Source: a virus
Length of the DNA stretch: 64,000 nt
Strand: one strand, 5' to 3'
IMG/VR virus record: IMGVR_UViG_3300029787_000005
Location: 1 to 64,000 of that record
Shown: piece by piece, positions 12,550-40,127 of the stretch
Numbering within the stretch: position 1 is the stretch's first letter
Layout: every line of letters begins with the position of its first letter
Program-made: the position numbers and the translations under genes
The notes under the pieces: generated by a model
The model's database searches: none
What the model was told of the DNA's origin: nothing
Seen by the model: only the letters and a program-made list of their open reading frames with translations

Positions 12550-12560
12550 CGGAGAAAAGA

Positions 12561-13319
12561 TTGAAGAAAATAGATGAAGATGAAGAGGCATGGGTTGCGT
12601 TCCCACACCATAGATGGGTATTCAATAAATTACAAGTAGCATTGAAGTTGGGTTATGCGGCTGGCCCTGCCTGCGTTCCTGTTCAGCATGATGGGATGTA
12701 TATTGTAAGACCAATATACAATTTATATGGTATGAGTGTTGGAGCTAAGAAGCAGTGGCTCCGAATACAAGATGCTGAGGATATAAAAAGCCACAAGTTT
12801 ATGCCCGCAGGACATTTCTGGTGTGAGTTTTTTGAAGGTACTCACTACTCTATTGACTATCGTTGGGTTGAAGATGGTAAAGGTGGCATACATAGTCACT
12901 GGGAACCATTCTGCACGACAATAGGAAAGTGCCATCCAGACCAGATGTGGAAGTTTACACACTGGCAAACTATAGAGAGCTTTCCTCATATTTTACCTAA
13001 CTGGCTAGATGATTTTAGCGACTGTGGTGTTATAAATATTGAGTGGAAGAGAAATGGATCTCCATACAATCATGGTGGATCAGCTTTAGATAATAGGCTG
13101 CTTGAGATTCATTTACGATCTGGTAATGATGTCGTACATGAAGGTCCCGTGGGAACTGAAATGATACCTGTCTGGCAAAGTGATGGTATACGGCTTATAA
13201 AGAAGTATGAAGCACAAGGATGGGTCTACCATAACAACTATATCAAGGGAGAGATATATCACGCAGATGGCCAGATCTCAGATCCAAGAGTTGGTTACTT
13301 AACGAGATGCAAATTGTAA
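12561..13319 (+). CDS. ATP-grasp-like hypothetical protein
   Basis: YIVRP..N..G.S.GA, W.EF..G.H.S.D, INIEW and LEIHLR (ExNxR-like) pattern; TTG start after GGAG. Confidence 0.5.
   Translation: MKKIDEDEEAWVAFPHHRWVFNKLQVALKLGYAAGPACVPVQHDGMYIVRPIYNLYGMSVGAKKQWLRIQDAEDIKSHKFMPAGHFWCEFFEGTHYSIDYRWVEDGKGGIHSHWEPFCTTIGKCHPDQMWKFTHWQTIESFPHILPNWLDDFSDCGVINIEWKRNGSPYNHGGSALDNRLLEIHLRSGNDVVHEGPVGTEMIPVWQSDGIRLIKKYEAQGWVYHNNYIKGEIYHADGQISDPRVGYLTRCKL
13031..13038 (+). promoter_or_regulatory. T4-type late promoter
   Basis: TATAAATA, ~270 bp upstream of the B12 radical SAM gene. Confidence 0.45.
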
Positions 13320-14869
13320 TCTTCACAGAGGTTAGTTATCCAGGTTTTGGTAGATATGCAGGAACATATAGAGTAGCCACAGAACTTAGAGACTCAGGAT
13401 ACACAGTCCAGGTCATTGAGTTCTTTACTCGTATGGATAAAGATGAACTACTCAAAGTCATTGATAAGTTTGTTACAAAGGAGACCAAGCTAGTTGGTTT
13501 CTCTTGCACATTCTTTTTACCTAAAGCTATGGGCTGGGGTGGAAGATCAAAGATTAGAAAACTTATCAATACACAAAATATTGATGATGCACTAGATGAA
13601 ACAACACCATCTCCAGGAAGTAAAGTATCAACTGAAAGACATATGTCTACTGATGCAGCAACAGTCTCTGGTGTATCTAATCTGTTGTTTGGTAGAGATG
13701 ATATGTTTGAGATATTTGATCGTATCAAAGAAAGAGGTAATCCACGTATGATGGTTGGAGGTGCCAGAGCTTATCTTGCTGAAGATCCTCCATTCAACTC
13801 TGAGATAGACTATGTTATAAGAGGCCAAGCTGATACATCTGTTGTAGCTTTAGCTGATCATATATTCTATAATGCTGATCTCAAGATAGGATATCAAAAA
13901 GGCAAATGTAAGATTATTGAAGAAAAGGATTATCCGGTAGATGATTTTACTATATCAAGAATAAGATATACCGATAGTGATATCATTATGCCAAAAGAAG
14001 TGTTGCCTTTAGAACTTGCTAGAGGTTGTATATTCAAATGTGCATTCTGCTCATACAATCTTATTGGTAAGAAAGTTTGGGAGTTCAATAGAAACCCAGA
14101 TCTGGTTGCAAGAGATCTCCAAGAGATGTATGATAAGTATGGATCCACAGGATTCATGGTGTGTGACGACACGTATAACGACTCTATAGACAAGGTAGAG
14201 AGGTTCCATAAGGCATTCACTAGCCTGAACTTCCAACCCACCTTCTCAACGTATGCTAGGGCGGATATGATGGTGTCTAAGCCAGAGACAATGCCTTTAT
14301 TATATGAGAGTGGTATGCGTAGTGTGTTCTTTGGTATTGAGACATTGAACCACCGAGCTGGTAAAGCTATTGGTAAAGGTATGGATCCTGAAAAGATAAA
14401 GGATGGGTTATTTAAAGCTAAAGCTACTCCTGGCTGGAATGAGATCGTAACAACATCTGGTTTTATTATTGGATTGCCTTATGAGACTGAAGAGTCTATA
14501 CATGAAACATATCAATGGTTATTGAGAGATGATTGTCCACTAGATTCATTTAGTCCTACAGCTCTAACAATCAGTCCAGATTCTTCAATGGGATTGAATA
14601 TGGCTAAATACGGATATCAATGGGATGAGAATGGTAGCTGGTATAGTGAATGGATGACAGAGCAACAAGCTAAAGATCTGGCAATGTATTATTCCAGACA
14701 GCTTGTGAAGAAGAAAAGAGCTAGGTTCCAGTTTACATTCTTTGGCAGGATGCAAAATATTGGATGGACATTACAAGATTTTGATAATGAAAGATTCACT
14801 AATGATGAAAGTGACAGACGTAAAGATGTTGTTCAATATAACTACTTAGAACGATTAATGAACTTGTGA
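13307..14869 (+). CDS. cobalamin-dependent (B12-binding) radical SAM enzyme
   Basis: N-terminal B12-binding-like region (LVGFS.TF, VGGA, GQAD); RGCIFKCAFC; DDT.N; FGIETL; FIIGLP.ET.ES. Confidence 0.9.
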   Translation: MQIVIFTEVSYPGFGRYAGTYRVATELRDSGYTVQVIEFFTRMDKDELLKVIDKFVTKETKLVGFSCTFFLPKAMGWGGRSKIRKLINTQNIDDALDETTPSPGSKVSTERHMSTDAATVSGVSNLLFGRDDMFEIFDRIKERGNPRMMVGGARAYLAEDPPFNSEIDYVIRGQADTSVVALADHIFYNADLKIGYQKGKCKIIEEKDYPVDDFTISRIRYTDSDIIMPKEVLPLELARGCIFKCAFCSYNLIGKKVWEFNRNPDLVARDLQEMYDKYGSTGFMVCDDTYNDSIDKVERFHKAFTSLNFQPTFSTYARADMMVSKPETMPLLYESGMRSVFFGIETLNHRAGKAIGKGMDPEKIKDGLFKAKATPGWNEIVTTSGFIIGLPYETEESIHETYQWLLRDDCPLDSFSPTALTISPDSSMGLNMAKYGYQWDENGSWYSEWMTEQQAKDLAMYYSRQLVKKKRARFQFTFFGRMQNIGWTLQDFDNERFTNDESDRRKDVVQYNYLERLMNL

Positions 14870-14875
14870 GGTGAC

Positions 14876-15751
14876 ATGAAAGTAGATCAGTGGGAAGTGT
14901 GTATGAATGCAGCTCAAGAAATTGTTCTTAGCAGCTCAAACGGTATATTGCATGATCAAGTTGATCAGTGGCACAATAAAGGATATTTCATAGTTAAGAA
15001 TGTCAATCTACCAGGAGAGGTCAATTCACTAAGAGATGCTTCAAGACAAGCAGAAGACATCAATGACGATAGATTTTTTGGTGAATATGATGGACGTGCA
15101 AGGACAGTTTGGGCACCACATTGGGAAGACTGGGGTAAGTGGTTAGAACACTATGCAAGGAATAATCCAGTACTTCCTGTAGTTAAATATTTAATGGGTG
15201 GCCAGGTTTATATAAACCAATTGCATTTCAACTACAAGCTAGCCAATGGTGGTGGAGCATTTGGATGGCATTCTGATTATACTGTATTCAAGTATCATGA
15301 TAAATGGCAGAATATGAATGGACTTAGTGTGTTCTTCATGCTTGATGATATGAATGAGACTAATGGTCAGTTTCATTTTGCACCAGGGAGTCATAAAGTT
15401 GATCTTCAGTTACAAGAAGGTTTTGATTTACCAGATAGCTTTACTCATGCAGAATATGGTGACAATCCTAGCCATGATAGAGGAAGCACGTCTTCCGATA
15501 CATTCACTGCACCCAGTTATGTTGGAGGACCTGCAGATGGTCCTACATACCCAATTGAAAGAATAGAAGCCAAAGCTGGTGATGCTTTAGTCTTTCATTC
15601 TAATGTGTGGCATATGAGTCCTAAGAATCTTTCAAAGAAGGATCGACGTACTTTCTGCGTATGTTACAATCACATAGACAATAAAACGCAGTGGCCTATC
15701 ACAAATGACCGTAAGAAATGGATGACTCTTAAAGACTTCACTCCTATTTAA
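14876..15751 (+). CDS. PhyH/EctD-like Fe(II)/2OG dioxygenase
   Basis: FGWHSD (EctD-like FxWHSD), LDD....NG.....PGSH, GDA..FHSN.WH.S..N.S...R. Confidence 0.85.
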   Translation: MKVDQWEVCMNAAQEIVLSSSNGILHDQVDQWHNKGYFIVKNVNLPGEVNSLRDASRQAEDINDDRFFGEYDGRARTVWAPHWEDWGKWLEHYARNNPVLPVVKYLMGGQVYINQLHFNYKLANGGGAFGWHSDYTVFKYHDKWQNMNGLSVFFMLDDMNETNGQFHFAPGSHKVDLQLQEGFDLPDSFTHAEYGDNPSHDRGSTSSDTFTAPSYVGGPADGPTYPIERIEAKAGDALVFHSNVWHMSPKNLSKKDRRTFCVCYNHIDNKTQWPITNDRKKWMTLKDFTPI

Positions 15752-15759
15752 TATAAATA
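15752..15759 (+). promoter_or_regulatory. T4-type late promoter
   Basis: TATAAATA immediately upstream of the riboswitch. Confidence 0.7.
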
Positions 15760-15763
15760 GATA

Positions 15764-15810
15764 TACGTTCACCCATATAGGGCGGAAGTAGCGAAAGCGA
15801 AGGAACGCAT
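15764..15810 (+). ncRNA. glutamine riboswitch (glnA RNA motif), minimal form
   Basis: CGTTC...GAACG P1, CCC-ATATA-GGG P2, CGGAAGTA E-loop, GC-GAAA-GC P3 and GAAGGAACGC, matching the glnA-motif consensus. Confidence 0.85.
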
Positions 15811-15836
15811 CTTACTTTTAACAAAAGGAGGGTGCT

Positions 15837-16043
15837 GTGAGATATGCAATCTTAAACCAATATCTTAAAAAAGAACGTACAAAAAAAAGCCACATAGCTT
15901 TATTGAAAACTCGAGGTAATTTATTATGTCAACAGAACAGCAAGGTGGGATCAAACCTGAAATATTTCCTGACCACGTTGAGCTTGAATTTACCTTTACT
16001 GAAAACGAGCTATCGTTCAGGGATGCTTTTCTCGAGACGTTAA
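15837..16043 (+). CDS. small basic peptide downstream of riboswitch
   Basis: AAGGAGG RBS and GTG start directly after the riboswitch; overlaps the next gene. Confidence 0.5.
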   Translation: MRYAILNQYLKKERTKKSHIALLKTRGNLLCQQNSKVGSNLKYFLTTLSLNLPLLKTSYRSGMLFSRR

Positions 16044-16885
16044 TTGATATTGCCAGCAAGACCACAAAAGAGTTAGTAATATGCTTTAGTGGTGGAGCAG
16101 ACTCACAATTAGTAAAGTGGGGTTTCGATTATCTCGAAATCCCACATAGAGTCATGCATCAAAGATATCTATTAAATGGTGCTTATCTAAACTGGGAAGA
16201 AGCTGGTTTAGTTCCACCAGAGACAGAGTTTGTAGATATAGATGTAAAGAAGTATCAGAAGTCTAAATTCTTTCAAGATAGATTTGTTAAAGAGTTTCCA
16301 ACTAGTGTGCACTCATCTATTCAATGTGATCTAGATGGTAAGTACGATCCCAATGATATATTCTTAGTTAGTTGTTCATCACCATACAACATATACAAAT
16401 TTGGTTGGAGAGAAGACAAGAGATGGTCTTTTGCTCCATCTAATCTATGGAAGACAATTGGTTTCAGAGAGTATGATTACACTGGTGTATTCTATGATAA
16501 TCCATCAGTGTGTTATGCCCTGTTTGATGATCTTTACAAACAACAATCAAGAGAGTTGGAACAAGGTAAGTGGGAATATTGGTACAAGCATACGTTTTTT
16601 GAACATCACTTTCCAGAAGTGTCTGACAAGATAAAGCAGAAGCTCAATAACGATAAGTTTCCATACTTTTCAGATCTAGTATATGATAGAACAAGAGGCA
16701 TATATCAATATGATATAAATGATAATAGGTACTTGTATGACTGTTATCCTCAAAGGTCATTTATTGGTGTGGAGATGGAAGAGTTTTTTGAGCGTATAGA
16801 AAAAGGAACTACAGTAATGAAGTTTAGTCGTGAATGGTGTAGGTTGGGAGATCAAATAGTTGTTGACACTCCAATCATCGAATGA
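15926..16885 (+). CDS. PP-loop (adenine nucleotide alpha-hydrolase) family protein
   Basis: ICFSGGADS PP-loop. Confidence 0.65.
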   Translation: MSTEQQGGIKPEIFPDHVELEFTFTENELSFRDAFLETLIDIASKTTKELVICFSGGADSQLVKWGFDYLEIPHRVMHQRYLLNGAYLNWEEAGLVPPETEFVDIDVKKYQKSKFFQDRFVKEFPTSVHSSIQCDLDGKYDPNDIFLVSCSSPYNIYKFGWREDKRWSFAPSNLWKTIGFREYDYTGVFYDNPSVCYALFDDLYKQQSRELEQGKWEYWYKHTFFEHHFPEVSDKIKQKLNNDKFPYFSDLVYDRTRGIYQYDINDNRYLYDCYPQRSFIGVEMEEFFERIEKGTTVMKFSREWCRLGDQIVVDTPIIE

Positions 16886-17513
16886 TAGACTTGTTCAAAT
16901 ACCCTATAGGCAAGAACAGAGGGTTGGAATACTCTTATCAGGGGGTATGGACTCAGGTCTTCTACTTAACTTGCTTGATATTGCTTGTACTGATTGCACT
17001 TTTGTAATCTTTACAATGGACAAGCCTGATGGCAGTCTAAAGTATTCTGCAGACATTATACAAAAGAGTAAGTTAAGAAACAAATGGGAACAACACATAG
17101 TTAAAGGTGGAAAGGAAAATGAGATTGCTTCGTTGGGTATTACAGGTAAAACTGCATTTAGACACATTCTTGATGATTATATCACCGACTTGGATGTACT
17201 GTACAGCGGCAATACTTCTAATCCTCCTCAATCTCTTATGTCAACTACCGCACCCCCAGACAGGTCAGTAGCAAACAAAGCTGTAGAAAAGTATGATAAG
17301 TTTGAAATACCATTCATTGAATTGAACAAAGCTGAAACTATTGATCTGGTAAAGAGGCTTGATATAGAATGGTTGTTTGAAGCCTCACATACGTGTACTG
17401 AGTTTGATGTTGGCAGATGTTATCAACAAACAGAAACAATACATTGTTGGCAGTGTATGGAAAGACAATGGGGCTTCATAGAAAACAATATGAGAGATCC
17501 CGGTACAAAATAG
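16860..17513 (+). CDS. QueC-like PP-loop ATPase with Zn-binding Cys cluster
   Basis: LLSGGMDS, PF..L.K.E, SHTC...C...C..C.ER.WGF. Confidence 0.75.
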   Translation: MLTLQSSNDRLVQIPYRQEQRVGILLSGGMDSGLLLNLLDIACTDCTFVIFTMDKPDGSLKYSADIIQKSKLRNKWEQHIVKGGKENEIASLGITGKTAFRHILDDYITDLDVLYSGNTSNPPQSLMSTTAPPDRSVANKAVEKYDKFEIPFIELNKAETIDLVKRLDIEWLFEASHTCTEFDVGRCYQQTETIHCWQCMERQWGFIENNMRDPGTK

Positions 17514-17542
17514 TTGACTAAATACCACGTTAGTAGTATTAT
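17514..17542 (+). promoter_or_regulatory. sigma70-like promoter upstream of carbamoyltransferase/radical SAM operon
   Basis: TTGACT-N17-TATTAT. Confidence 0.65.
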
Positions 17543-17570
17543 ACAATTATAATTGCTTGATAAGGAGTAT

Positions 17571-17825
17571 ATGATGGCAAAAGACGATACAGATATGAGT
17601 CATATCGATCAAAGGCTATTTAAGATGGCTGCGATGATTGATACAACAATCCGATATAACTGTGATGGTATGGAACTCGATGAGTTTGAGCAAAACTATC
17701 TCAATGTCTGGTTGAAGAAAGAACGGGATCCTTTGATTGTCGTTATTCTAGCAACACTAACTGGTGCTAGAGATCCTAATGCGGACGTTGATGGTGAAGT
17801 GGAAGCAGAAGCAGATGCAGCATGA
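17571..17825 (+). CDS. small acidic protein (ends ...EAEADAA)
   Basis: TAAGGAG RBS; ATGA overlap with the carbamoyltransferase. Confidence 0.75.
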   Translation: MMAKDDTDMSHIDQRLFKMAAMIDTTIRYNCDGMELDEFEQNYLNVWLKKERDPLIVVILATLTGARDPNADVDGEVEAEADAA

Positions 17826-19255
17826 GGGTACTCGGCTTCAGTGAAGGATTTCATGATGCCGCTGTAACTGTCTTAGATGGTAGTGAGATACTTTTTGCTG
17901 GTCACAGTGAAAGGTTCTCCAAAGTGAAAAATGACAAATACGTTTGTCAGGAGTTAAAAGATTATGTTAAAGAATACACGCACGGACTACGACCTCCTGA
18001 AATTGCTTTCTATGAACGGCCTTTTATCAAACGGACCCGTCAAGCGTATGCGGGGCAATGGAAGTCAGCTTTTAAAGCACGTCACCTTAACTATAACTAC
18101 GATCATTGCTTTAATCATCATCTTTCTCATGCTGCTGCCGCATTCCAATGTTCTCCATTCAGTAATGCAAATGCGCTTGTAGTAGATGCTATAGGAGAAT
18201 GGGATACCGTTAGTATATGGTATTGTGAATATGTTAACGAGAAAGCTGTATACAAAAAAGTAAAGTCTATGAGGTATCCCACTTCAATAGGTTTATTCTA
18301 TTCTGCTGTGACAGCTAGAGTAGGACTCAAACCTATGGAGGATGAATATATTACTATGGGTATGGCAGCATATGGCAAACCCAACAAAGAACTATATGAA
18401 GAATTAAGACGTCTAATGTTGAAGAAGAATCTTCACAGAGGAATGAATGGTTTACTATCAGAATATGATGATGTTGATATAGCATTCAATGCACAAAAGC
18501 TGGTAGAGAATATTCTAAAGACATTTGTAAACAAGTTAGACAAAAAACTTCCTATGGTATATGGTGGAGGTGTTGCGCTTAATAGTGTTGCAAATGGATT
18601 AATTTTGAGAAACAAACAACACTATGTGTTTCCTAATCCTGGTGATGCTGGTTCTTCATTAGGTGCAGCTGCATTGGTTCATAGGAATAAGATAAATTAT
18701 ACTCATTCATTTCATGGTTATAAATTATCAATGTTGACTGTTGATCAAATAAAACATGTTGTGGATGTGTTAGAGAAAGGAGAGCCAGTTGGTATTGCAG
18801 CTGGCAAAGCAGAATTTGGACCCAGAGCTTTAGGCAATAGAAGTTTATTATGTGATCCAAGAACATCAGAAAATAAAGATAGAGTTAATGACATAAAGAA
18901 ACGTCAGAAGTTTAGACCATTTGCTCCATCTATACTTTCTGAACATGCATCAAAATATTTTAGAACATTTAGACAACATGATTACAGCTATATGCAGAAT
19001 GTTGTTAAAGCTAGAGATTCATCATTCCTGGCTACCATGCATGAGGATGGTTCTGCCAGAGTGCATACAGTTGATCGATCTACCTGGTGTTATTCACCAT
19101 TGAGACATATACTTGAAATATGGTATGAAAGAACTGGATGTCCTACATTATTGAATACAAGTTTGAATATTAAAGGTCAACCTATGGTTAATGATAGTGC
19201 TGATGCAAAAGCATTTGCAGACGAATATGGAGTAGAAGTAGTTTGCAATGGATGA
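17822..19255 (+). CDS. carbamoyltransferase (NodU/CmcH/TobZ family)
   Basis: HDAA, ERFS..K, HHLSHAA, DAIGE, MGMAAYG, GGVALN, GDAG, EFGPRALGNRS, FRPFAP, H.DGSAR, LLNTSLN. Confidence 0.95.
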   Translation: MRVLGFSEGFHDAAVTVLDGSEILFAGHSERFSKVKNDKYVCQELKDYVKEYTHGLRPPEIAFYERPFIKRTRQAYAGQWKSAFKARHLNYNYDHCFNHHLSHAAAAFQCSPFSNANALVVDAIGEWDTVSIWYCEYVNEKAVYKKVKSMRYPTSIGLFYSAVTARVGLKPMEDEYITMGMAAYGKPNKELYEELRRLMLKKNLHRGMNGLLSEYDDVDIAFNAQKLVENILKTFVNKLDKKLPMVYGGGVALNSVANGLILRNKQHYVFPNPGDAGSSLGAAALVHRNKINYTHSFHGYKLSMLTVDQIKHVVDVLEKGEPVGIAAGKAEFGPRALGNRSLLCDPRTSENKDRVNDIKKRQKFRPFAPSILSEHASKYFRTFRQHDYSYMQNVVKARDSSFLATMHEDGSARVHTVDRSTWCYSPLRHILEIWYERTGCPTLLNTSLNIKGQPMVNDSADAKAFADEYGVEVVCNG

Positions 19256-25612: not shown

Positions 25613-26558
25613 GATTGTACCAGCCAAAGAAAAATGGTTGAGTATTGTTTGGCAAGTAAATGACTTTTGTAACTTTCGTTGCACTTATTGTAATGAAGGA
25701 AACTGGGGTGGTAGGTTTAAACATGAGGATGACATTGATAAGATCCTCACAACATTAGACTATATCATAGATCTGTATCAGGATCGTGGTTATCGCTACT
25801 TTAAACTGTTTCTAAGCGGTGGTGAGCCTACTCTATGGCCAGGACTCATACCAACCATAGAGCTGTTTAGAGAGCGTGTAGAGTTCCCTGGAAGCTGTGT
25901 AGGTGTCAATACAAACTTATCAAGAGGTCTGAAGTGGTGGCAAGAAAACTACACCTTGTTTGATGATATAGTAGCAAGCTATCATGCAGAATTTACAAAG
26001 GACGACAGATACTTTGAGAACTATGATTGGTTGTGTACAAGAATAGCATATATGTGTGCCAGAGTGATGATGCACAAAGACAAATGGGACCAATGTATTG
26101 CTATGACAGAGAGACTCAAAGAATGTACAAACCACATTATTGATTACGTGCCAGTGTTAGATTCTCTTAGACCAGACACAGAAGAATATCATTATGATGA
26201 GGACTATCAGATTGAGTTTTTCAAATCTAATCCAGATGTAAAGACAACCAATTTTACTATATTCAAAGATCCAAATTACGCTTATGCAAACATGATAGTT
26301 GATGGTGAAGAGATGCCAATAGAATCAAATATGATAATGCAAAATGGTTGGAACTTCTGGAAGGGTTGGGAATGTAACATACAAGACAGTCTCCACATAT
26401 ATCCAGATGGAAGAATAAGACAAGCTAGCTGTGGTGTAGGACCAATAGTTGGTAATATAGCTGGCAAGTTTGATTCAAGTAATATCAAACCAATAATTTG
26501 TCCGAAGCATCACTGTCATTGTGCTGCTGATTTTAATATTGCAAAAGGTCCAATATAA
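25596..26558 (+). CDS. radical SAM protein 6 with C-terminal twitch-like Cys cluster
   Basis: CNFRCTYC near the N-terminus; SGGEP; C-terminal C...DG...SC...CPKHHCHC. Confidence 0.9.
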   Translation: MPTLTKIVPAKEKWLSIVWQVNDFCNFRCTYCNEGNWGGRFKHEDDIDKILTTLDYIIDLYQDRGYRYFKLFLSGGEPTLWPGLIPTIELFRERVEFPGSCVGVNTNLSRGLKWWQENYTLFDDIVASYHAEFTKDDRYFENYDWLCTRIAYMCARVMMHKDKWDQCIAMTERLKECTNHIIDYVPVLDSLRPDTEEYHYDEDYQIEFFKSNPDVKTTNFTIFKDPNYAYANMIVDGEEMPIESNMIMQNGWNFWKGWECNIQDSLHIYPDGRIRQASCGVGPIVGNIAGKFDSSNIKPIICPKHHCHCAADFNIAKGPI

Positions 26559-27916
26559 TGTATTGTTATTATGCTATGAACGGTTTGAGTATAAACAACT
26601 TTGGTAGAGTAAGACCATGTTGTGTGGCAAAAACATTTAAGTCAATATCAGGAGCTCCTGGTGTAATTAACTCTCATGACTTAGACTATATCAATACGTG
26701 GCCAATCAAAATGAACAATGGTAAGTTTGGATTCCAACCACAGATTCAAGCAATGAATCATGTTAAAGAACTTCTTAATGATCCTGTGTTGTGTCATCTT
26801 AGAGAGAAGCTAAAGAAGAATAGAAGACCTGCAGAATGTGAAAGATGCTTCTATGTTGAGGACCAAGGCGGAGTCTCATATAGAATGGATGCAAACGAAA
26901 CTCACAAACATCTTATATATGAAGAATCCATCCAAGAAAAAGATGGGATAATGATTGATATGGAGCATATATCATACTTGGATATTACTCTTGGTAATGT
27001 GTGCAATTTACAATGCAAGACATGCAATCCATGGAGTAGTCACAACTGGATAGAAGAAGCGCAAGTTATACCTCACCAAGAACACAAACCAGAATACATT
27101 CCTTACTTAAAGCAAGGTAGAGAACAGCCTTGGTTTGTAAAAGCATTCAGAGAAAGATTCTTTGATCCTATACTTGGTCAGATAAGAACAATCAACTTTC
27201 TTGGTGGAGAGCCACTAGTTGTTAAAGAACACTATGAGTGGTTGAAGCATATCATAAACAAAGGATGGGCAAAGAATAAGACACTACAATATACATCAAA
27301 TGGAACTACAATACCTAACGCATTGATTGATTTGTGGTCACATTTTGAGCATGTAAATCTTGGTATAAGTATTGACGCCATAGGTGATAAAGCATACTAT
27401 ATAAGGCATCCTAGTAAATGGTCAGTGATTGAGAAAAACTTCGACAAACTAAGACAAAGGTGTAAAGAGGTTAAGCATATCAATGTGCAGTTGCATACAA
27501 CGGTAAGTATGCTTAACATCTTAGACATCGGCGAAGTGTATGAGTTTTCGAGGAATCAATATCAGAAATTTCACTATTTCGATGGAGAAGCCAGGACTCC
27601 TCACGGTTATATTAACATACTTCCTCATATCAACATTGTTGACTTCCCTAGGTATTACCATATCCGCCATCTACCTACTGAGTTGAAACACCAAGCAGTT
27701 AAACAAATAAAGTTGACTTATGATCGAGTTAAAGGTACAATAGAAAATCATTGGGAACAAAGTAATCTCATCAATCTAAATAACTTAGCAGAAATTATTA
27801 TGGAAGATCGTGATCCTCATATGTGGGATCAATTCTTAGATGTGCAAAGAGCGTCAGATAAATTTAGAAAATTAAAAGGAAGCGATTACCTACCATGGAT
27901 GAGTCAATATGTCTGA
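26558..27916 (+). CDS. N-terminal twitch-domain radical SAM protein 7
   Basis: YC...RPCC...CERC; CNLQCKTC; LGGEP. Confidence 0.9.
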   Translation: MYCYYAMNGLSINNFGRVRPCCVAKTFKSISGAPGVINSHDLDYINTWPIKMNNGKFGFQPQIQAMNHVKELLNDPVLCHLREKLKKNRRPAECERCFYVEDQGGVSYRMDANETHKHLIYEESIQEKDGIMIDMEHISYLDITLGNVCNLQCKTCNPWSSHNWIEEAQVIPHQEHKPEYIPYLKQGREQPWFVKAFRERFFDPILGQIRTINFLGGEPLVVKEHYEWLKHIINKGWAKNKTLQYTSNGTTIPNALIDLWSHFEHVNLGISIDAIGDKAYYIRHPSKWSVIEKNFDKLRQRCKEVKHINVQLHTTVSMLNILDIGEVYEFSRNQYQKFHYFDGEARTPHGYINILPHINIVDFPRYYHIRHLPTELKHQAVKQIKLTYDRVKGTIENHWEQSNLINLNNLAEIIMEDRDPHMWDQFLDVQRASDKFRKLKGSDYLPWMSQYV

Positions 27917-28811
27917 AGAAGTAGAATGGAGTCACATAACCGAAGCTAACAAGTCTACTTGGCCAAATTGGGATGATTATAATGGAGTGTTTATATCTCT
28001 TGGTTGCAGTCACACAGCCGGAAGTGAGATTGATAGTATGGGTGATAATGACGAACAGAGACAAAAATCTTATGGTGCTAAACTAGCAGAGAAGTTTGGT
28101 TACCAGCATTTGAACTATGCACAGTGTGGTGGTAGTAATCATAGAATATTTGATCAGTTCTGTGCAATCATGGCCGACATAGAATCTGGATATGGTTACT
28201 ATGCTCCTGTAAGAGAAGACTTCAACTATTTCTTTCTAATAGGATGGACTAGTTTGAATAGACTTGATCTGAGATACAAACAAGAAGACGATAATGAGTG
28301 GAAACAAGCTGGTCATTATGGTGACCGAGCTGATAACAAATATATTCCAGCTACTGTTGGTACTAATCCACTTATGATTAAAGATAAAGAGATACGTAAG
28401 GCATTTGATATGGCTTATATCTATGCAGATGATGTGATTGCTGCTAATAGACTAGCATCTTATATCTTTGCAATACAAAATATCATGATATCGTCTCCAT
28501 ATAAATACTATATGTTCAATGCGATTGAAAACTTTTACGATACACATACATCTCGTAAAGACCTTAATCAATCGTACAATCCAATTAGGTTTCCCCCATT
28601 TGTAGGAAACCAAAAGATTTATCAGAATATTGATACAAGGTTTTACTACAAGCCCATGGACAAACATTTCAACTATTATAGATGGTGCACTGAGGTTAAA
28701 GGTCATTCACCAAAAAGCCAAACATATTGGCATCTTGGAGAACAAGCTCATATAGATTGGGCAGAACATATTTACCCGGAGATAATTAATGCTTATCCAG
28801 ATTTGGCATAG
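27909..28811 (+). CDS. SGNH-like hydrolase/acyltransferase
   Basis: LGCSHTAG, N.A..GGSN.RI, IGWT..R and C-terminal H....H..WA. Confidence 0.55.
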   Translation: MSEEVEWSHITEANKSTWPNWDDYNGVFISLGCSHTAGSEIDSMGDNDEQRQKSYGAKLAEKFGYQHLNYAQCGGSNHRIFDQFCAIMADIESGYGYYAPVREDFNYFFLIGWTSLNRLDLRYKQEDDNEWKQAGHYGDRADNKYIPATVGTNPLMIKDKEIRKAFDMAYIYADDVIAANRLASYIFAIQNIMISSPYKYYMFNAIENFYDTHTSRKDLNQSYNPIRFPPFVGNQKIYQNIDTRFYYKPMDKHFNYYRWCTEVKGHSPKSQTYWHLGEQAHIDWAEHIYPEIINAYPDLA

Positions 28812-28908
28812 TTTTATTGATTGGATAACATATCCATACATAAGATACAAAAGAAGAAAAAGACTTGCAGAGATCCGTAAACACGATCCATTTATCTATG
28901 AGGAATGA
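28789..28908 (+). CDS. small phage protein (39 aa)
   Basis: GGAGA RBS; ...KRRKRLAEIRKHDPFIYEE, read by hand. Confidence 0.55.
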   Translation: MLIQIWHSFIDWITYPYIRYKRRKRLAEIRKHDPFIYEE

Positions 28909-29163
28909 GTGATGGCACTATATACTATCTACACCAGAGATCTATGTGGCTTTTGTGATGCAGCAAAGGCACTTATGGATTCATTGAATCTTCCATACGA
29001 AGAATTTAATCTTGAATCACATCCACACCACAGAGATGAGTTACTTTCAAAGGTACCTCCTGGAACTACTACTGTTCCACAAATATTTGTCGGTGACCTA
29101 CACATTGGTGGCTTTGATGACTTCAAAGTATATGTAGAGGAATCAGTACAAAGCGGAAGATAA
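28909..29163 (+). CDS. glutaredoxin
   Basis: CGFC, TVPQIF, IGG. Confidence 0.9.
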   Translation: MMALYTIYTRDLCGFCDAAKALMDSLNLPYEEFNLESHPHHRDELLSKVPPGTTTVPQIFVGDLHIGGFDDFKVYVEESVQSGR

Positions 29164-29169
29164 TTTATT

Positions 29170-30141
29170 ATGGTAAAATTGACAATAATGGACAGTGGTC
29201 CAGAAAAAAATGAGTTGAATAAAAATGCTTGGGGTGGTACTGAGCTTATGCAAAATAGATTGTATAAGGAGATGCCAAAAGATCTGATTGATCAATTCCA
29301 AATTATTTGTTCTAGACCTCGTAAGTTAAAAGAAGATAAGAAGAGGATACTTTGGTGTCATGATCTTGCACAAGATCCTGAGGTAGAACATTTAAAAGAT
29401 GGTGGTCATGAGAAGTATGACAAACTTGTGTTTGTATCTCATTGGCAATTTCAAGACTACATGTATCATCTTGGTATACCTCATTCATCAGGTTATGTTC
29501 TTCAAAATGCTATTGATCCAATAGATGAACATGAAAAACCAACAGATGAGATCAACCTCGTATACTTTTCAACACCACATAGAGGGTTGGATATATTGGT
29601 TCCTGTATTTGAGGAGATGAGAAACAATCACTTTCAGAGTATAAAGAAACCAGTTAACCTACATGTATACTCTAGTTTCAAATTGTATGGGTGGCCCGAG
29701 AGGGACAAAGAACACAAAGCTCTTATTGATAAGTGTAAGAACACTGAAGGTATTCATTATCATGGAGCTGTACCAAATGCAGAGATGAGAGAAAACTTGA
29801 AGAAGATGCATATCCTTGCATACCCATGTGTATGGCCTGAGACAAGCTGTATGGTTCTTATGGAAGCTATGTCAGCAAAGTTATTGTGTGTTCATAGTTC
29901 ATTTGCTGGGTTACCAGAGACAGCTGCTAACTGGACTATGATGTATCCAGTACATGAAGTAGCTAATGATCATGCTCAGATCTTTGCACAGAATTTGTTT
30001 AACGCAGTATCATTAGTAGATGACAGTGCATTACAAGATAGGTTACATATGCAGAAACAATATACTGATGCATTCTACAATTGGGATGTAAGAGCTATGC
30101 AGTGGAAAATATTTTTGGAAGGCTTAGCAAATGGGGGTTGA
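29170..30141 (+). CDS. glycosyltransferase (GT-B, GT4-like)
   Basis: GGTE, FVS.WQ, STPHRGL, YP..W.ETSC...MEAM. Confidence 0.85.
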   Translation: MVKLTIMDSGPEKNELNKNAWGGTELMQNRLYKEMPKDLIDQFQIICSRPRKLKEDKKRILWCHDLAQDPEVEHLKDGGHEKYDKLVFVSHWQFQDYMYHLGIPHSSGYVLQNAIDPIDEHEKPTDEINLVYFSTPHRGLDILVPVFEEMRNNHFQSIKKPVNLHVYSSFKLYGWPERDKEHKALIDKCKNTEGIHYHGAVPNAEMRENLKKMHILAYPCVWPETSCMVLMEAMSAKLLCVHSSFAGLPETAANWTMMYPVHEVANDHAQIFAQNLFNAVSLVDDSALQDRLHMQKQYTDAFYNWDVRAMQWKIFLEGLANGG

Positions 30142-30364
30142 TATGTCACCAGAAGAATTTATGGAAATGAAAAAAATAGAGTCCGGTGCCAATATATTAT
30201 GGGATAGGATATCAGACCAAGGTAGATATAATGTATATAAGGTTGTATCAGAACTTCAAGAACTATTAGATACCATAGATGATGAGTTTGCTGTAACAAA
30301 GAAACAAAGAGAGTATTTAAGAAGAGTGAGGTTATCCTGTGACAAAGTATTCGGTTCCAACTAG
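30131..30364 (+). CDS. hypothetical protein
   Basis: 77-aa ORF within the operon. Confidence 0.6.
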   Translation: MGVDMSPEEFMEMKKIESGANILWDRISDQGRYNVYKVVSELQELLDTIDDEFAVTKKQREYLRRVRLSCDKVFGSN

Positions 30365-30989
30365 CGAAAAACTAACACCAGACAATCAAGAAGAGTTCAG
30401 AGAGTTCTTAATTCAACAAAGAGAGTTAGGAATGGCTGATCGTAATGCTGATTGGTTTGACTATCTACTTGATAAAGATTTCTGGAAAACATATCCTATG
30501 TGGACATTCTCAAAGATAGATGGTGAGATATGGTGTTGTGCAGCTGTACAAAAGCATAACTTTCCTGTTGGTATCTATAGAGTAATGTCAAGACTTTATG
30601 TAGCACCTAAGTTCCGTAAGAGGACCAGTGAGCTACTTGGACCGGTTCAGAGAGGCGTATACAAGGCTGATTGGCCGGCTAAATCAGCTTATCTGTTTCC
30701 TATGCAAAGAAAAATGGCATCATCTGGTAGAAACTCAATGATCATGACAATGGAACATGTCCAGAGAATCAGACCATTGAATGTTATATGTAAGTTTTTC
30801 AATAAGCAATATGATACTAGCTTCAAGGTAGTCAAGGATAAAATGTTTAAGACATTCCCAGATGAGAACAATTGGAAAGCATGGCAAGTACTTGCGTGGG
30901 AAGGGAATCATACCCCACCCATTGAAAATATTAGTGTAGATGAATGGAAAGAAAGATTTCCTGAAGCTACTCTTTCAATTTCCAAGTAG
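30339..30989 (+). CDS. GNAT-like hypothetical protein
   Basis: RLYVAPKFRKR resembles GNAT motif A. Confidence 0.45.
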   Translation: MTKYSVPTSEKLTPDNQEEFREFLIQQRELGMADRNADWFDYLLDKDFWKTYPMWTFSKIDGEIWCCAAVQKHNFPVGIYRVMSRLYVAPKFRKRTSELLGPVQRGVYKADWPAKSAYLFPMQRKMASSGRNSMIMTMEHVQRIRPLNVICKFFNKQYDTSFKVVKDKMFKTFPDENNWKAWQVLAWEGNHTPPIENISVDEWKERFPEATLSISK

Positions 30990-40104: not shown

Positions 40105-40113
40105 TATGTAATG

Positions 40114-40121: not shown

Positions 40122-40127
40122 TAACGT

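What the first reader, a model, noticed from the sequence alone, without database searches (positions are those of the whole stretch)
12561..30989. Phage-encoded ~18 kb biosynthetic cluster built around eight radical SAM enzymes
Seen in sequence: about 20 co-directional, mostly overlapping genes. In order: ATP-grasp-like, B12 radical SAM, EctD/PhyH dioxygenase, glutamine riboswitch, PP-loop ATPase, QueC-like ATPase, small acidic protein, NodU/CmcH carbamoyltransferase, seven radical SAMs, SGNH-like protein, glutaredoxin, GT4 glycosyltransferase and a GNAT-like protein. Established: these families carry out C-methylation, hydroxylation, adenylation/amidation, O-carbamoylation, acylation and glycosylation. 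Inference: this looks like a tailoring pathway inside a lytic T4-like genome. It could make a hypermodified product, such as a decorated glycan on virion proteins, a hypermodified DNA base or a modified peptide/small molecule. I know of no characterised phage pathway with this composition. TATAAATA late promoters at 13031 and 15752 favour a late (virion- or DNA-packaging-related) role.
Basis: partly seen in the sequence, partly recalled or inferred. Interest (0 to 1): 0.92.

Follow-up and report, generated by a model that had tools for sequence, protein, structure and literature searches.

The report
Phage radical-SAM tailoring operon, nitrogen-gated
An uncultured but common marine T4-like phage carries about 19 tightly packed enzyme genes, eight of them iron-sulfur "radical SAM" enzymes, that most likely rebuild and decorate a sugar-bearing molecule nobody has identified, and part of the block sits behind a glutamine-sensing RNA switch.

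Summary
Window 12531-30989 carries 19 co-directional plus-strand genes, and all 16 tested are under purifying selection (dN/dS 0.00-0.16). Eight are radical SAM enzymes: one B12-type, six members of the catalogued but uncharacterised NCBIfam family NF033640 (auxiliary Fe-S "twitch" domain at the N-terminus), and one with a C-terminal Cys cluster. Also confirmed: PhyH dioxygenase, glutamine riboswitch, two PP-loop ATPases, NodU/CmcH-type carbamoyltransferase, DUF6071 (SGNH-like), glutaredoxin and GT4. "ATP-grasp" (g01) and "GNAT" (g19) could not be confirmed, and the late-promoter argument is weak.

The block is composite. Its core is an eight-gene radical-SAM block with an SGNH-like gene. That core is collinear in other phage contigs at 41-62% identity. 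The family occurs in at least 589 IMG/VR stretches. The B12 enzyme, PhyH, riboswitch, PP-loop pair, Grx and GT4 are add-ons of this lineage.

My best reading (0.45) is stepwise radical editing, amidation, carbamoylation and transfer of a sugar-bearing substrate. Product and target are unknown. Peptide or protein targets and a 7-deazapurine link are not excluded.

This scan has met the same cassette on other phage DNA many times (373 notes, at least 284 genomes), with the same reading. What is new here is the riboswitch-gated PP-loop module and a position away from the tail fibres.

The parts
12531..13319 (+). g01, 262 aa, phrog_3577, function unknown. Doubtful member of the pathway.
   Evidence: PHROG E 9e-21. 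No Pfam or NCBIfam match. 106 homologue clusters in marine phage data. A profile search against PDB found nothing. The ATP-grasp label rests only on an Atlas lead.
13307..14869 (+). g02, 520 aa, B12-type (class B-like) radical SAM
   Evidence: Radical_SAM 59.1 bits. B12-binding 19.1 bits, below the cut-off. The best NCBIfam match is the PhpK family at 74 bits against a cut-off of 600.
14876..15751 (+). g03, 291 aa, PhyH-family Fe(II)/2-oxoglutarate dioxygenase
   Evidence: PhyH 87.9 bits. It is not an EctD equivalog (86.7 vs 336.5). No match in relative L121.
15752..15759 (+). TATAAATA, a T4 late-promoter-like octamer in an intergenic position
   Evidence: Identical in 4 of 4 close relatives. 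The motif is not enriched in the window.
15764..15811 (+). Glutamine riboswitch aptamer (glnA type)
   Evidence: RF01739, 50.4 bits against a gathering score of 35, full model length. Not found in L121, L012, L036, L017 or L024.
15837..16043 (+). 68-aa basic ORF behind a strong Shine-Dalgarno site. It overlaps g04 by 118 nt in another frame.
   Evidence: The only indel inside the ORF is an in-frame 3-nt one, in an alignment with three near relatives. No family match.
15926..16885 (+). g04, 319 aa, PP-loop ATP pyrophosphatase of the asparagine-synthetase / beta-lactam-synthetase / QueC kind
   Evidence: SGGADS motif. No Pfam match. AF2 model at pLDDT 68.9. Foldseek hits to carbapenam synthetase, LarE, beta-lactam synthetase, AsnB and GMP synthetase at E 2e-4 to 3e-3 and TM up to 0.43. 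The nearest Atlas clusters are almost all viral (95-100%), and some carry QueC or Asn_synthase.
16860..17513 (+). g05, 217 aa, divergent QueC-like PP-loop protein with a C-terminal Cys (zinc-site-like) motif
   Evidence: QueC Pfam 33.4 bits, covering profile positions 152-209 only. TIGR00364 22.5 vs 150.3. SGGMDS motif. It is the only QueC match in the 128-kb record.
17553..17825 (+). g06, 90 aa, acidic, no family. Its stop overlaps the carbamoyltransferase start.
   Evidence: 62% identical over the whole-length alignment to L121 (71% over the 72-residue tblastn match). No non-synonymous change in 76 codons against L010.
17822..19255 (+). g07, 477 aa, NodU/CmcH/TobZ-type carbamoyltransferase
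   Evidence: Carbam_trans_C 153.4 bits and Carbam_trans_N 110 bits. 29 related phage loci.
19248..20651 (+). g08, N-twitch radical SAM 1
   Evidence: NF033640 306.1 bits. 62% identical to a protein in L154 but only 24% to its nearest paralogue in the window.
20606..21967 (+). g09, N-twitch radical SAM 2
   Evidence: NF033640 338.2 bits. SPASM domain at residues 22-102, before the Radical_SAM domain at 147-301.
21900..23159 (+). g10, N-twitch radical SAM 3
   Evidence: NF033640 348.5 bits. SPASM at 28-96 before Radical_SAM at 141-286.
23152..24408 (+). g11, N-twitch radical SAM 4
   Evidence: NF033640 395.4 bits. AF2 model at pLDDT 94.4. PDB matches cover the radical SAM core only.
24383..25612 (+). 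g12, N-twitch radical SAM 5
   Evidence: NF033640 297.5 bits.
25596..26558 (+). g13, 320 aa, radical SAM with the core motif at the N-terminus and a C-terminal Cys cluster. Not an NF033640 member.
   Evidence: Radical_SAM 30.2 bits. NF033640 only 21.9 bits. Relatives sit inside the arrays of 9 of 80 phage loci and 8 of 78 bacterial loci.
26558..27916 (+). g14, N-twitch radical SAM 6
   Evidence: NF033640 304.9 bits.
27909..28811 (+). g15, 300 aa, DUF6071 (SGNH-like)
   Evidence: DUF6071 28.2 bits vs 27. Its sequence cluster is present in 34 of 81 loci.
28909..29163 (+). g16, glutaredoxin
   Evidence: PF00462 65.6 bits. Follows the carbamoyltransferase in 7 further loci that have no N-twitch match in the stretch held.
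29170..30141 (+). g17, GT4-type glycosyltransferase
   Evidence: Glycos_transf_1 43.7 bits. 39-40% relatives lie near the carbamoyltransferase in 6 further loci.
30131..30364 (+). g18, 77 aa, no family
30339..30989 (+). g19, 216 aa, no family. The GNAT label is not confirmed.
   Evidence: 15 unannotated homologues. A profile search against PDB found nothing.

Best explanation
The block is a phage-encoded, multi-step tailoring operon for a sugar-bearing substrate. That substrate could be a nucleotide sugar or a glycan, possibly one attached to a protein.

Shown:
- The core is a collinear block of six old paralogues of the N-twitch radical SAM family, one further radical SAM and an SGNH-like protein.
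- Each paralogue keeps the SAM-cluster motif and four N-terminal cysteines.
- Five of the six paralogues have a closer relative in other phages than in their own genome.

Inferred:
- Each radical SAM enzyme performs a different radical step (oxidation, epimerisation, deoxygenation or C-C chemistry) on the same scaffold.
- The B12-type enzyme adds a methyl group and PhyH adds a hydroxyl group.
- The two PP-loop enzymes adenylate a carboxylate and turn it into an amide.
- The carbamoyltransferase O-carbamoylates a hydroxyl group.
- The SGNH-like protein adds or removes an acyl group.
- GT4 transfers the sugar.
- Glutaredoxin here, and an IscA-like gene 9 kb downstream, keep the Fe-S enzymes working.
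- The glutamine riboswitch couples translation of the small ORF and the nitrogen-consuming PP-loop and carbamoyl genes behind it to the host's glutamine level.

The product and its target (virion protein, host envelope or a soluble molecule) are unknown.
For: Real and selected:
- dN/dS is 0.00-0.16 in 16 of 16 genes against L010.
- The whole order is kept in 3 near-identical contigs. Most of it is kept in L121 at 50-85% identity.
- 19 marine DNA runs hold at least 0.97 of the sampled words; all 20 holder runs together come from 10 studies.
- Contigs of two DNA runs not flagged as the source cover 30 of 30 bins.

The core is conserved as a unit:
- NTwi1 ... NTwi4, NTwi5, g13, NTwi6 stand in the window's order in the five loci whose hit tables I printed (L122, L123, L124, L144, L154) out of 80, at up to 62% identity. 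L123 lacks NTwi1. An SGNH-like gene follows in L122 and L123.
- All 409 full-length family members in 81 loci have CxxxCxxC, and 403 have the N-terminal Cys pattern. Loci hold 2-7 copies, most often 5.

Links to sugars:
- A carbamoyltransferase lies within 10 kb in 52 of 80 N-twitch loci.
- It also travels with Grx in 7 loci and with GT4 in 6 of those, all without an N-twitch match in the stretch held.
- In lineage L012 the cassette is flanked by an NAD-dependent epimerase/dehydratase (E 4e-39), a formyltransferase (E 2e-37) and an APS-kinase-like gene.
- tblastn finds relatives of these L012 neighbours in the 80 loci: epimerase in 12, kinase in 18 and cytidylyltransferase in 12.
- One family representative is a natural fusion of a GT2 glycosyltransferase domain (E 5e-16 to solved GT2s) with an N-twitch enzyme.

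From established knowledge (recalled, not from a call): NodU, TobZ and NovN carbamoylate sugars. BtrN (twitch radical SAM), GenK (B12 radical SAM), KanJ (PhyH family), TobZ and GT4 enzymes together tailor aminoglycosides.
Against: - No sugar-nucleotide synthesis gene, aminotransferase or flippase lies in the window's block.
- Four of the ten long family representatives I read carry TPR repeats: one verified at E 1e-29, three by reading. One more carries ankyrin repeats and one Sel1-like repeats, both by reading. Such repeats are protein-binding modules.
- The single-copy bacterial genes whose neighbours I examined (7 neighbours in Reichenbachiella, 3 in Agaribacillus) sit among regulators, YaaA and DUF3108, not in glycan loci.
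- The most common companions of the cassette in other phages have no Pfam match.
- g04, g05, g06, PhyH, Grx and GT4 have no tblastn match in the 80 N-twitch loci. The window's add-ons may therefore serve something else.
- Co-transcription is not shown. The RNA-library contigs (24 of 30 bins) may derive from DNA.
Confidence: 0.45

Rival explanations
1. The radical SAM enzymes act directly on amino-acid side chains of a protein or peptide, either a phage structural protein or a host protein. This would be a RiPP-like or post-translational maturation system. The PP-loop, carbamoyl and hydroxylase enzymes would be further side-chain modifiers.
For: - SPASM/twitch radical SAM enzymes are mostly peptide maturases. 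The top Foldseek hits are SkfB and CteB, and SuiB and anSME follow.
- Family representatives fused to TPR, ankyrin or Sel1-like repeats suggest protein partners.
- B12 radical SAM, hydroxylase and epimerase-type radical SAM together recall proteusin tailoring (recalled).
- Small conserved ORFs exist: g06, and the 68-aa ORF behind the riboswitch.
Against: - No recognisable precursor peptide, leader or RRE/PqqD domain. The N-terminus is the Fe-S domain itself.
- g06 has no repeated or Cys/Ser/Thr-rich core.
- The single-copy bacterial genes whose surroundings I examined (2 loci) have no adjacent small ORF family or maturation genes.
- The carbamoyltransferase, GT4, epimerase/dehydratase and GT2 fusion point to sugars.
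Confidence: 0.2
2. The block, or at least its PP-loop part, belongs to a 7-deazapurine or other nucleobase pathway. FolE, QueD-like and QueE-like enzymes encoded about 100 kb away make 7-carboxy-7-deazaguanine. g05 and/or g04 amidate it when glutamine is plentiful, and a phosphoribosyltransferase makes the nucleotide. The other enzymes would decorate a nucleoside or a DNA base.
For: - The same genome encodes, at 117.9-121.3 kb, a QueE-like enzyme (phrog_2076, E 1.5e-54), a 2OG oxygenase, QueD-like, an XPRT/HGPRT-like phosphoribosyltransferase and FolE.
- g05 is the only QueC-like gene in the 128 kb.
- Four of 5 other N-twitch phage records have FolE and QueE-like. Four of 5 have no QueC match, and the fifth has only a weak one (E 7.6e-5). 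None has TGT.
- Viperin and MoaA, which act on nucleotides, recur among the weak family matches.
Against: - No TGT/DpdA and no thymidylate-synthase-type hydroxymethylase is found, although the record is only 73% complete.
- g05 matches QueC only over its last 58 profile positions and fails the equivalog cut-off (22.5 vs 150.3).
- As a control, the QueE-like gene occurs in 95 cultured phage records (KVP40, nt-1, pf16 and others), while only 3 cultured records (Vibrio K566, K567 and Ralstonia RsoM2USA) have an N-twitch match. The two traits are therefore not specifically linked.
- One complete 338-kb N-twitch phage has neither FolE nor QueE.
- g04 and g05 have no relatives beside the deazaguanine genes of three other phages.
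Confidence: 0.12
3. There is no single pathway. The 18 kb is a mosaic of independent auxiliary genes that are co-directional only because this whole 30-kb arm of the genome is transcribed one way.
For: - Plus-strand genes run without interruption from about 1.1 kb to 31 kb, so direction alone does not delimit a cluster.
- In L121, PhyH has no match and no riboswitch was found, and an extra 310-aa gene is inserted.
- g01 is a common marine phage gene.
- The add-ons are absent from 80 of 80 other N-twitch loci.
Against: - The genes are packed with start/stop overlaps.
- The radical SAM core is collinear across distant phages.
- Carbamoyltransferase recurs with N-twitch arrays (17 of 29 and 52 of 80 loci) and with Grx/GT4.
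- Neither of the two plus-strand intrinsic-terminator-like sites is intergenic.
Confidence: 0.2

Closest known systems
NCBIfam NF033640, N_Twi_rSAM (twitch domain-containing radical SAM protein)
   Same: Six window proteins score 297-395 bits against a cut-off of 170. The architecture is the same: four N-terminal cysteines, then CxxxCxxC.
   Different: The family has no characterised member that I could find. Phrase searches for "N-terminal twitch", "N-terminal SPASM" and NF033640 returned no paper, and the 6 papers concern ordinary C-terminal twitch enzymes. Here there are six old paralogues in a row inside a phage. The two bacterial isolates whose surroundings I examined carry a single copy.
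Radical SAM gene cassettes noted in pelagimyophage hypervariable islands (Zaragoza-Solas et al. 2020, PMC7029224; passages read)
   Same: Marine T4-like phages of streamlined heterotrophs. [quoted passage not shown]
   Different: The paper gives no analysis of those cassettes and reports finding no riboswitches. Its island lies between VrlC and gp14. Here the block lies between denV and the PhoH / RNase H / gp32 genes. I did not see the paper's supplements.
Aminoglycoside tailoring enzymes (BtrN, GenK, KanJ, TobZ, GT4 glycosyltransferases; recalled, not from a call)
   Same: The same set of enzyme classes is present: twitch radical SAM, B12 radical SAM, PhyH-family dioxygenase, NodU/TobZ carbamoyltransferase and GT4. 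All of these act on sugar or aminocyclitol hydroxyl and amino groups.
   Different: No equivalog cut-off is met for any of them. The twitch domain is N-terminal. There is no 2-deoxy-scyllo-inosose synthase or aminotransferase. This is a resemblance in how it may work, not family membership.
SPASM/twitch peptide maturases and anSME (SkfB, CteB, SuiB, anSMEcpe)
   Different: Only the radical SAM core aligns (TM up to 0.40). The auxiliary domain lies on the other side of the core. No RRE domain and no precursor gene are present.
Phage 7-deazaguanine DNA modification systems (FolE, QueD, QueE, QueC, DpdA; recalled)
   Same: FolE, QueD-like and QueE-like genes are in the genome, and a QueC-like gene lies in the block.
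   Different: No DpdA/TGT match. The QueC likeness is confined to the C-terminus. The QueE-like gene is common in cultured phages that lack the cassette.
Glutamine riboswitch in Melnitz-like and SAR11 myophages (Buchholz et al. 2022, PMC9004378; passages read)
   Same: The same RNA class occurs in the same broad phage group, and a two-piece alpha-type tmRNA is also present.
   Different: In Melnitz the riboswitch is placed with ssrA and a transcription coactivator. Here it precedes a small ORF and two PP-loop ATPases inside an enzyme operon. This genome has both the tmRNA and the riboswitch, which that paper calls rare.

Membership tests
NCBIfam NF033640 N_Twi_rSAM | Whole-protein score above the curated cut-off (170 bits) | tested here: met
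   g08 306.1, g09 338.2, g10 348.5, g11 395.4, g12 297.5 and g14 304.9 bits. g13 scores 21.9 and is not a member.
NCBIfam NF033640 N_Twi_rSAM | A Cys-rich auxiliary (twitch/SPASM-like) domain placed before the CxxxCxxC core | tested here: met
   Pfam SPASM lies at residues 12-102, ahead of Radical_SAM, in g09-g12. Four N-terminal Cys and the three core Cys are invariant in 6 of 6 paralogues and in 56 of 56 aligned sequences.
NCBIfam NF033640 N_Twi_rSAM | A defined reaction or substrate | not testable with these tools
   Searches found no paper on the family.
Class B (cobalamin-dependent) radical SAM methyltransferase | An N-terminal B12-binding domain plus the radical SAM core | tested here: inconclusive
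   g02 scores 59.1 bits for Radical_SAM. Its B12-binding match is 19.1 bits, below the 32.1 cut-off. 22 B12-type NCBIfam models match weakly and none reaches its cut-off.
NodU/CmcH/TobZ carbamoyltransferase | Both the Carbam_trans_N and Carbam_trans_C domains above cut-off | tested here: met
   110 bits vs 24 and 153.4 bits vs 27. The NodU equivalog is not met (103 vs 1000).
QueC (7-cyano-7-deazaguanine synthase) | A full-length match at equivalog level | tested here: not met
   g05 scores 22.5 on TIGR00364 against a cut-off of 150.3. The Pfam match covers profile positions 152-209 of 210 only. The PP-loop motif SGGMDS is present.
PP-loop ATP pyrophosphatase superfamily | The SGGxDS motif and the alpha/beta ATP-binding fold | tested here: met
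   g04 has SGGADS and g05 has SGGMDS. The g04 model matches carbapenam and beta-lactam synthetase, AsnB, LarE and GMP synthetase, with Foldseek probability 0.96-1.00 for the top 16 rows. TM reaches only 0.43 and the model's pLDDT is 68.9.
Glutamine riboswitch RF01739 | Covariance-model score above the gathering threshold over the full model | tested here: met
   50.4 bits vs 35, covering model positions 1-53 of 53.
RiPP biosynthetic cluster | A precursor peptide gene and a recognition (RRE) element | tested here: inconclusive
   Pfam and NCBIfam report no RRE/PqqD domain for any gene. g06 and the 68-aa ORF are conserved small ORFs with no family, so neither can be excluded as a substrate.
Phage 7-deazaguanine DNA modification (Dpd-type) | A DpdA/TGT-family transglycosylase | tested here: inconclusive
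   PF01702 finds nothing in the 128,318 bp, while the control rings in 14 of 14 genomes. However, the record is 73% complete and divergent DpdA proteins may escape this model.
   No Pfam or NCBIfam match. A profile of 33 homologues against PDB gives a best E of 0.18, to an unrelated antitoxin. The Atlas lead scores 0.91 with 105-111 shared features. No fold was predicted.
   No Pfam, PHROG or NCBIfam match. A profile of 13 homologues against PDB gives a best E of 0.62. No fold was predicted.
GT4 / Glycos_transf_1 | Pfam score above the cut-off | tested here: met
   g17 scores 43.7 bits vs 26.4, and Glyco_trans_1_4 scores 40.1 vs 27.

The most novel reading that the evidence does not exclude
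The arrays of N-twitch radical SAM enzymes are a phage-borne radical "assembly line". Each old paralogue would perform a different reaction, none yet described, on one scaffold. The result would be a hypermodified (C-methylated, hydroxylated, amidated, carbamoylated) sugar or sugar-nucleoside unknown to chemistry. In this phage, the nitrogen-costly steps would be switched on by a glutamine riboswitch only when the infected cell has nitrogen to spare.
Probability: 0.3. Interest if true: 0.85.

Novelty: new variant of a known kind. Interest (0 to 1): 0.6.

Why it matters
The central enzyme family is large. A search of 1.84 billion representative proteins finds 1,472 at E up to 1e-30, and at least 589 IMG/VR stretches encode a relative. 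It is concentrated in phages as arrays of 2-7 old paralogues, yet I found no paper that assigns it a reaction.

A phage found in 19 marine DNA runs (all 20 holder runs together span 10 studies) spends about 10% of its estimated genome on oxygen-sensitive Fe-S enzymes, apparently in surface seawater. The product must therefore matter for infection.

Identifying the product would:
- give a new radical SAM reaction class;
- explain a common "dark" block of phage genomes;
- show what a riboswitch does inside a viral metabolic operon.

Vibrio phages K566 and K567 and Ralstonia phage RsoM2USA carry distant members. They offer a way to test the family in culture.

Tried and rejected
- megablast of the block against 50,697 phage records found no match.
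- Complex prediction of the carbamoyltransferase with g06 gave no verdict (score 0.02, mark 0.32). This says nothing either way.
- g06 against the 34-residue peptide that precedes the carbamoyltransferase in 5 of 29 loci gives only a 7-residue local match (E 0.034 for that one comparison). I do not claim they are related.
- Sequence searches of g01, g04 and g05 against PDB found nothing useful. Profile searches of g01 and g19 also found nothing.
- Ten representatives of the commonest companion gene clusters of other N-twitch loci were sent to Pfam. Eight had no match, one gave a weak Peptidase_G2 match and one was APS-kinase-like. None of these clusters has a member in the window.
- Bacterial single-copy contexts were uninformative.
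- Sigma-70-like sites (79 vs 82.8 expected) and terminator-like sites (11 vs 7.8) are at chance level.
- In the RNA libraries, run X24 gave one short piece only. Run X20's short contigs leave 6 of 30 bins without cover.
- I considered and set aside a specific link between the cassette and the FolE/QueD/QueE module after the control.
- I rejected the idea that the Ala-Ala end of g06 is a conserved degron, because the L121 orthologue ends differently.
- I did not open supplementary files of papers. Those of PMC7029224 may annotate its radical SAM cassettes.

Full report
WHAT IS THERE

The window is the first 64 kb of a 128,318-bp linear IMG/VR virus record, estimated 73% complete. It is a T4-like myovirus:
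- PHROGs for the baseplate hub/lysozyme and wedge subunits gp6, gp7 and gp8 match at E 1e-84 to 1e-146.
- gp32, T4-type RNase H and PhoH lie just downstream of the block.
- denV lies just upstream.

Its gp6 is at most 35% identical to any cultured phage. The listed best matches are mostly phages of Alphaproteobacteria (Caulobacter Cr30, Sinorhizobium phiM12 and phiN3, Pelagibacter HTVC008M), with Stenotrophomonas phage DLP6 ranked first. The window also holds a two-piece alpha-type tmRNA.

From 12531 to 30989 there are 19 plus-strand ORFs. Most overlap the next by 1-68 nt. The gaps over 10 nt are 174 nt (after g03), 39 nt and 97 nt. Plus-strand genes in fact run from about 1.1 kb to 31 kb, so direction alone does not define the left border.

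FAMILIES

Eight genes are radical SAM enzymes.
- g02 is B12-type. Radical_SAM scores 59.1 bits and the B12-binding match is sub-threshold. Only weak matches to PhpK, HpnJ, BchE and similar models appear.
- g08, g09, g10, g11, g12 and g14 are members of NCBIfam NF033640 "N_Twi_rSAM" at 297-395 bits against a cut-off of 170.
  - Pfam places a SPASM domain at their N-terminus, before the radical SAM core.
  - Four N-terminal Cys and CxxxCxxC are invariant among the six.
- g13 has the core motif first and a Cys-rich C-terminus. It is not a member of that family.

Also confirmed:
- PhyH dioxygenase (g03);
- a NodU/CmcH-type carbamoyltransferase (g07);
- DUF6071 (g15, just over the cut-off), whose sequence starts with a GCSHT motif resembling block I of SGNH hydrolases (my reading; the motif is recalled);
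- glutaredoxin (g16) and a GT4 glycosyltransferase (g17).

g04 and g05 both carry the PP-loop motif SGGxDS.
- g05 matches QueC only over its Cys-rich C-terminal end.
- g04 has no family. Its model (pLDDT 68.9) matches carbapenam and beta-lactam synthetase, asparagine synthetase, LarE and GMP synthetase, at low TM.

g01, g06, g18 and g19 have no Pfam or NCBIfam family.

THE RIBOSWITCH

RF01739 matches at 15764-15811 over the whole model (50.4 bits vs 35). It sits 5 nt after an intergenic TATAAATA. It lies 13 nt before an AAAGGAGG site and a GTG-started 68-aa ORF that overlaps g04. In an alignment with three near relatives, the only indel inside this small ORF is an in-frame 3-nt one. The octamer and aptamer are identical in all four.

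TATAAATA as such is not enriched in the window. Ten copies are found against 7 expected, and 18 of 100 shuffles reach 10. The copy at 13031 lies inside g01. The "late" inference therefore rests on one site.

Glutamine riboswitches and two-piece tmRNAs are already reported in Melnitz-like and SAR11 myophages. There the riboswitch sits next to ssrA, and the two features are said to occur together only rarely (PMC9004378, passages read).

IS IT CONSERVED AND FUNCTIONAL?

- Three IMG/VR contigs carry the whole block in the same order at 81-99% protein identity.
- dN/dS against the most distant of them is 0.00-0.16 in 16 of 16 genes.
- A further relative, L121 (50-85% identity), keeps g01, g02, g04, g05, g06, the carbamoyltransferase and NTwi1-4 in order. 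PhyH has no match in it, no riboswitch was found, and an extra 310-aa gene is present.
- Nineteen marine DNA runs hold at least 0.97 of the sampled words; all 20 holder runs together come from 10 studies.
- Contigs of two DNA runs not flagged as the source cover all 30 bins at 99% identity or more.
- One metatranscriptome library has short contigs over 24 of 30 bins, including the small-ORF/g04 start and the g08/g09 junction. DNA carry-over cannot be excluded and I could lay no control stretch.

THE BLOCK IS COMPOSITE

In the best 80 loci plus the window:
- The family is present in 81 of 81 loci with 413 copies, at 2-7 per locus and most often 5.
- All 409 full-length copies have CxxxCxxC, and 403 have the N-terminal Cys pattern.
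- Five of the window's six paralogues have a much closer relative in another phage (41-62%) than in their own genome (24-34%). NTwi2 and NTwi3 are a younger pair, 39% identical to each other, and NTwi2 has no closer relative elsewhere.

In the five loci whose hit tables I printed (L122, L123, L124, L144, L154), NTwi1 ... NTwi4, NTwi5, g13 and NTwi6 stand in the window's order (L123 lacks NTwi1). An SGNH-like gene follows in L122 and L123.

By tblastn, within 10 kb of the 80 loci:
- a carbamoyltransferase lies in 52;
- g13-like genes in 9;
- B12-type radical SAM genes in 8;
- g01, g03, g04, g05, g06, Grx and GT4 in none.

Starting from the carbamoyltransferase instead, 17 of 29 loci have N-twitch genes within the flanks. 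Seven others have Grx with no N-twitch match in the stretch held, and six of those also have GT4.

In summary, the radical SAM core is an old unit. The carbamoyltransferase is a frequent partner that also travels with Grx and GT4. The riboswitch/PP-loop/g06 module, PhyH and g01 belong to this lineage only.

OUTSIDE PHAGES

In one genome per species, 290 of 516 candidate stretches encode relatives. Of the 78 loci kept:
- 31 have two or more copies. These are mainly Bdellovibrionota, Elusimicrobia and some Bacteroidota MAGs, and some include g13-like and B12-type genes.
- 47 have one copy.

In the isolates Reichenbachiella faecimaris and Agaribacillus aureus, the single gene sits among two-component regulators, YaaA, DUF3108 and a Mur ligase. 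This says nothing about a substrate.

A full HMMER scan of 1.84 billion representatives gives 1,472 proteins at E up to 1e-30. Nine of the best 150 look like tandem double enzymes. Of the 10 long forms I read:
- one is a GT2 glycosyltransferase fused to an N-twitch enzyme (GT2 verified at E 5e-16);
- four carry TPR repeats (one verified at E 1e-29; three by reading);
- one carries ankyrin repeats and one Sel1-like repeats (by reading);
- three have unknown N-terminal domains.

STRUCTURE

The NTwi4 model is confident (pLDDT 94.4, pTM 0.90). It matches solved structures only through the radical SAM core:
- Foldseek gives SkfB, CteB, GDGT-MAS, PFL-AE, anSME, SuiB and viperin, with query TM up to 0.40.

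These are ties, so the fold does not tell the substrate.

WHAT IT MOST LIKELY DOES

I commit, at 0.45, to a tailoring pathway for a sugar-bearing substrate. The reasons are these:
- The carbamoyltransferase family acts on sugar or similar hydroxyl groups in its characterised members (recalled).
- It travels with GT4.
- In lineage L012 the cassette is flanked by an NAD-dependent epimerase/dehydratase, a formyltransferase, a weak cytidylyltransferase-like match (below the Pfam cut-off) and an APS-kinase-like gene.
- Relatives of the epimerase, kinase and cytidylyltransferase recur in 12, 18 and 12 of 80 loci.
- A natural GT2 fusion exists.
- The enzyme classes present parallel aminoglycoside tailoring: BtrN, GenK, KanJ, TobZ and GT4 (recalled).

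The six paralogues would each do a separate radical step. The PP-loop pair would amidate a carboxylate. The riboswitch would tie translation of the small ORF and the nitrogen-consuming genes behind it to glutamine. That glnA-type switches turn translation on is recalled, not tested here. Grx, and the IscA-like gene at 40397-40747, fit maintenance of Fe-S enzymes.

RIVALS

(a) Direct protein or peptide modification (0.2).
- For: the peptide-maturase structural neighbours and the fusions to TPR, ankyrin and Sel1-like repeats.
- Against: no precursor, no RRE, and the sugar-linked companions.

(b) A 7-deazapurine or nucleobase pathway (0.12).
- For: the genome encodes a QueE-like enzyme, a 2OG oxygenase, QueD-like, an XPRT/HGPRT-like phosphoribosyltransferase and FolE at 117.9-121.3 kb. 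g05 is the only QueC-like gene. No TGT is found. Four of 5 other N-twitch phage records show FolE and QueE-like without TGT; four of 5 have no QueC match and the fifth only a weak one.
- Against: as a control, the QueE-like gene is in 95 cultured phage records, while only 3 cultured records have an N-twitch match. One complete N-twitch phage has neither FolE nor QueE. The link is therefore not specific. g05 may still serve that pathway.

(c) A mosaic of unrelated auxiliary genes (0.2).
- For: the lineage-specific add-ons.
- Against: the tight packing and the recurring partnerships.

NOVELTY

The enzyme superfamilies are known, and the central family is catalogued but untested. The pelagimyophage paper mentions radical SAM cassettes in one sentence without analysis (PMC7029224). 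A cyanophage paper lists a single "radical SAM maturase" among "antibiotic genes" (PMC12801897).

I searched for "twitch domain-containing radical SAM", for "N-terminal twitch" / "N-terminal SPASM" / NF033640, and for radical SAM with carbamoyltransferase, phage and glycosyltransferase terms. None of these found a description of this cassette.

This scan has noted the same cassette on other DNA many times (373 notes in at least 284 genomes). Follow-up agents reached the same "sugar-tailoring, product unknown" reading. I treat that as a lead, not as support. I re-derived the family membership, the spread and the partnerships here.

New in this window:
- the glutamine-riboswitch-gated PP-loop/g06 module joined to the carbamoyltransferase;
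- the B12 and PhyH add-ons;
- the position in the replication-side variable region rather than behind the tail fibres.

I file it as a new variant of a known kind, with interest 0.6.

Noticed in passing
own genome G000:C1:117940-121276 (outside the window): A module of QueE-like radical SAM, 2OG-Fe oxygenase, QueD-like, an XPRT/HGPRT-like phosphoribosyltransferase and FolE. No TGT/DpdA match and no QueC match other than g05 occur in the 128 kb. Orthologous FolE/QueD/QueE genes (with the PRTase in 2 of 3) occur in three other N-twitch phage records. This suggests a deazaguanine nucleotide route without a transglycosylase.
   Followed up: partly
window 40087-40379 and 15764-15811: The same genome has both a two-piece alpha-type tmRNA and a glutamine riboswitch. 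PMC9004378 says phages of this group rarely have both.
   Followed up: partly
window 15837-16043: A 68-aa basic ORF with a strong Shine-Dalgarno site directly behind the riboswitch. It overlaps g04 by 118 nt in another frame. The overlap is nearly invariant among four contigs, and the only indel inside the ORF is in frame.
   Followed up: partly
L012:9897-10001, and the same place in L015, L016, L036 and L037: A 33-34-residue basic peptide gene ends at the start codon of the carbamoyltransferase in 5 of 29 loci. It is nearly identical between loci whose carbamoyltransferases are each only 46-48% identical to the window's. The window has the 90-aa g06 in that position, with only a 7-residue resemblance.
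   Followed up: partly
window 40397-40747 and 42259-43086: An IscA/HesB-type Fe-S assembly gene lies right after the tmRNA, and a GT2-like gene lies 1.5 kb further on. The two ORFs between them (40744-42259) have no Pfam or NCBIfam match, so the "three glycosyltransferases" noted earlier are only partly confirmed.
   Followed up: partly
own genome G000:C1:91530-92459 (minus strand): A ninth radical SAM gene (309 aa) outside the block. Its best weak matches are TrsS, MoaA and Tes-type enzymes.
   Followed up: no
L043-L046, L050-L052 (Bdellovibrionota and Oligoflexia MAG contigs): Arrays of 2-8 N-twitch genes in MAGs of predatory bacteria, some with g13-like genes and two (L043, L045) with a B12-type radical SAM. 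I did not test whether these contigs are bacterial or mis-binned phage.
   Followed up: no
proteins P0135-P0138, P0144, P0166, P0174, P0234, P0244: Nine of the best 150 family representatives are about twice as long and have two matched stretches. They appear to be natural tandem fusions of two N-twitch enzymes, which hints that the paralogues work in pairs.
   Followed up: no
L202 (Vibrio phage K566, 161548-165950 of the record): A cultured 255-kb Vibrio phage has three radical SAM genes in a row, one of them 24.5% identical to NTwi4, among unannotated genes. It is a possible laboratory model.
   Followed up: partly
L121:5648-5721 and 3251-3321: The 50-85% relative has two tRNA genes just upstream of g01, where the window has denV. 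The window itself has no tRNA gene.
   Followed up: no
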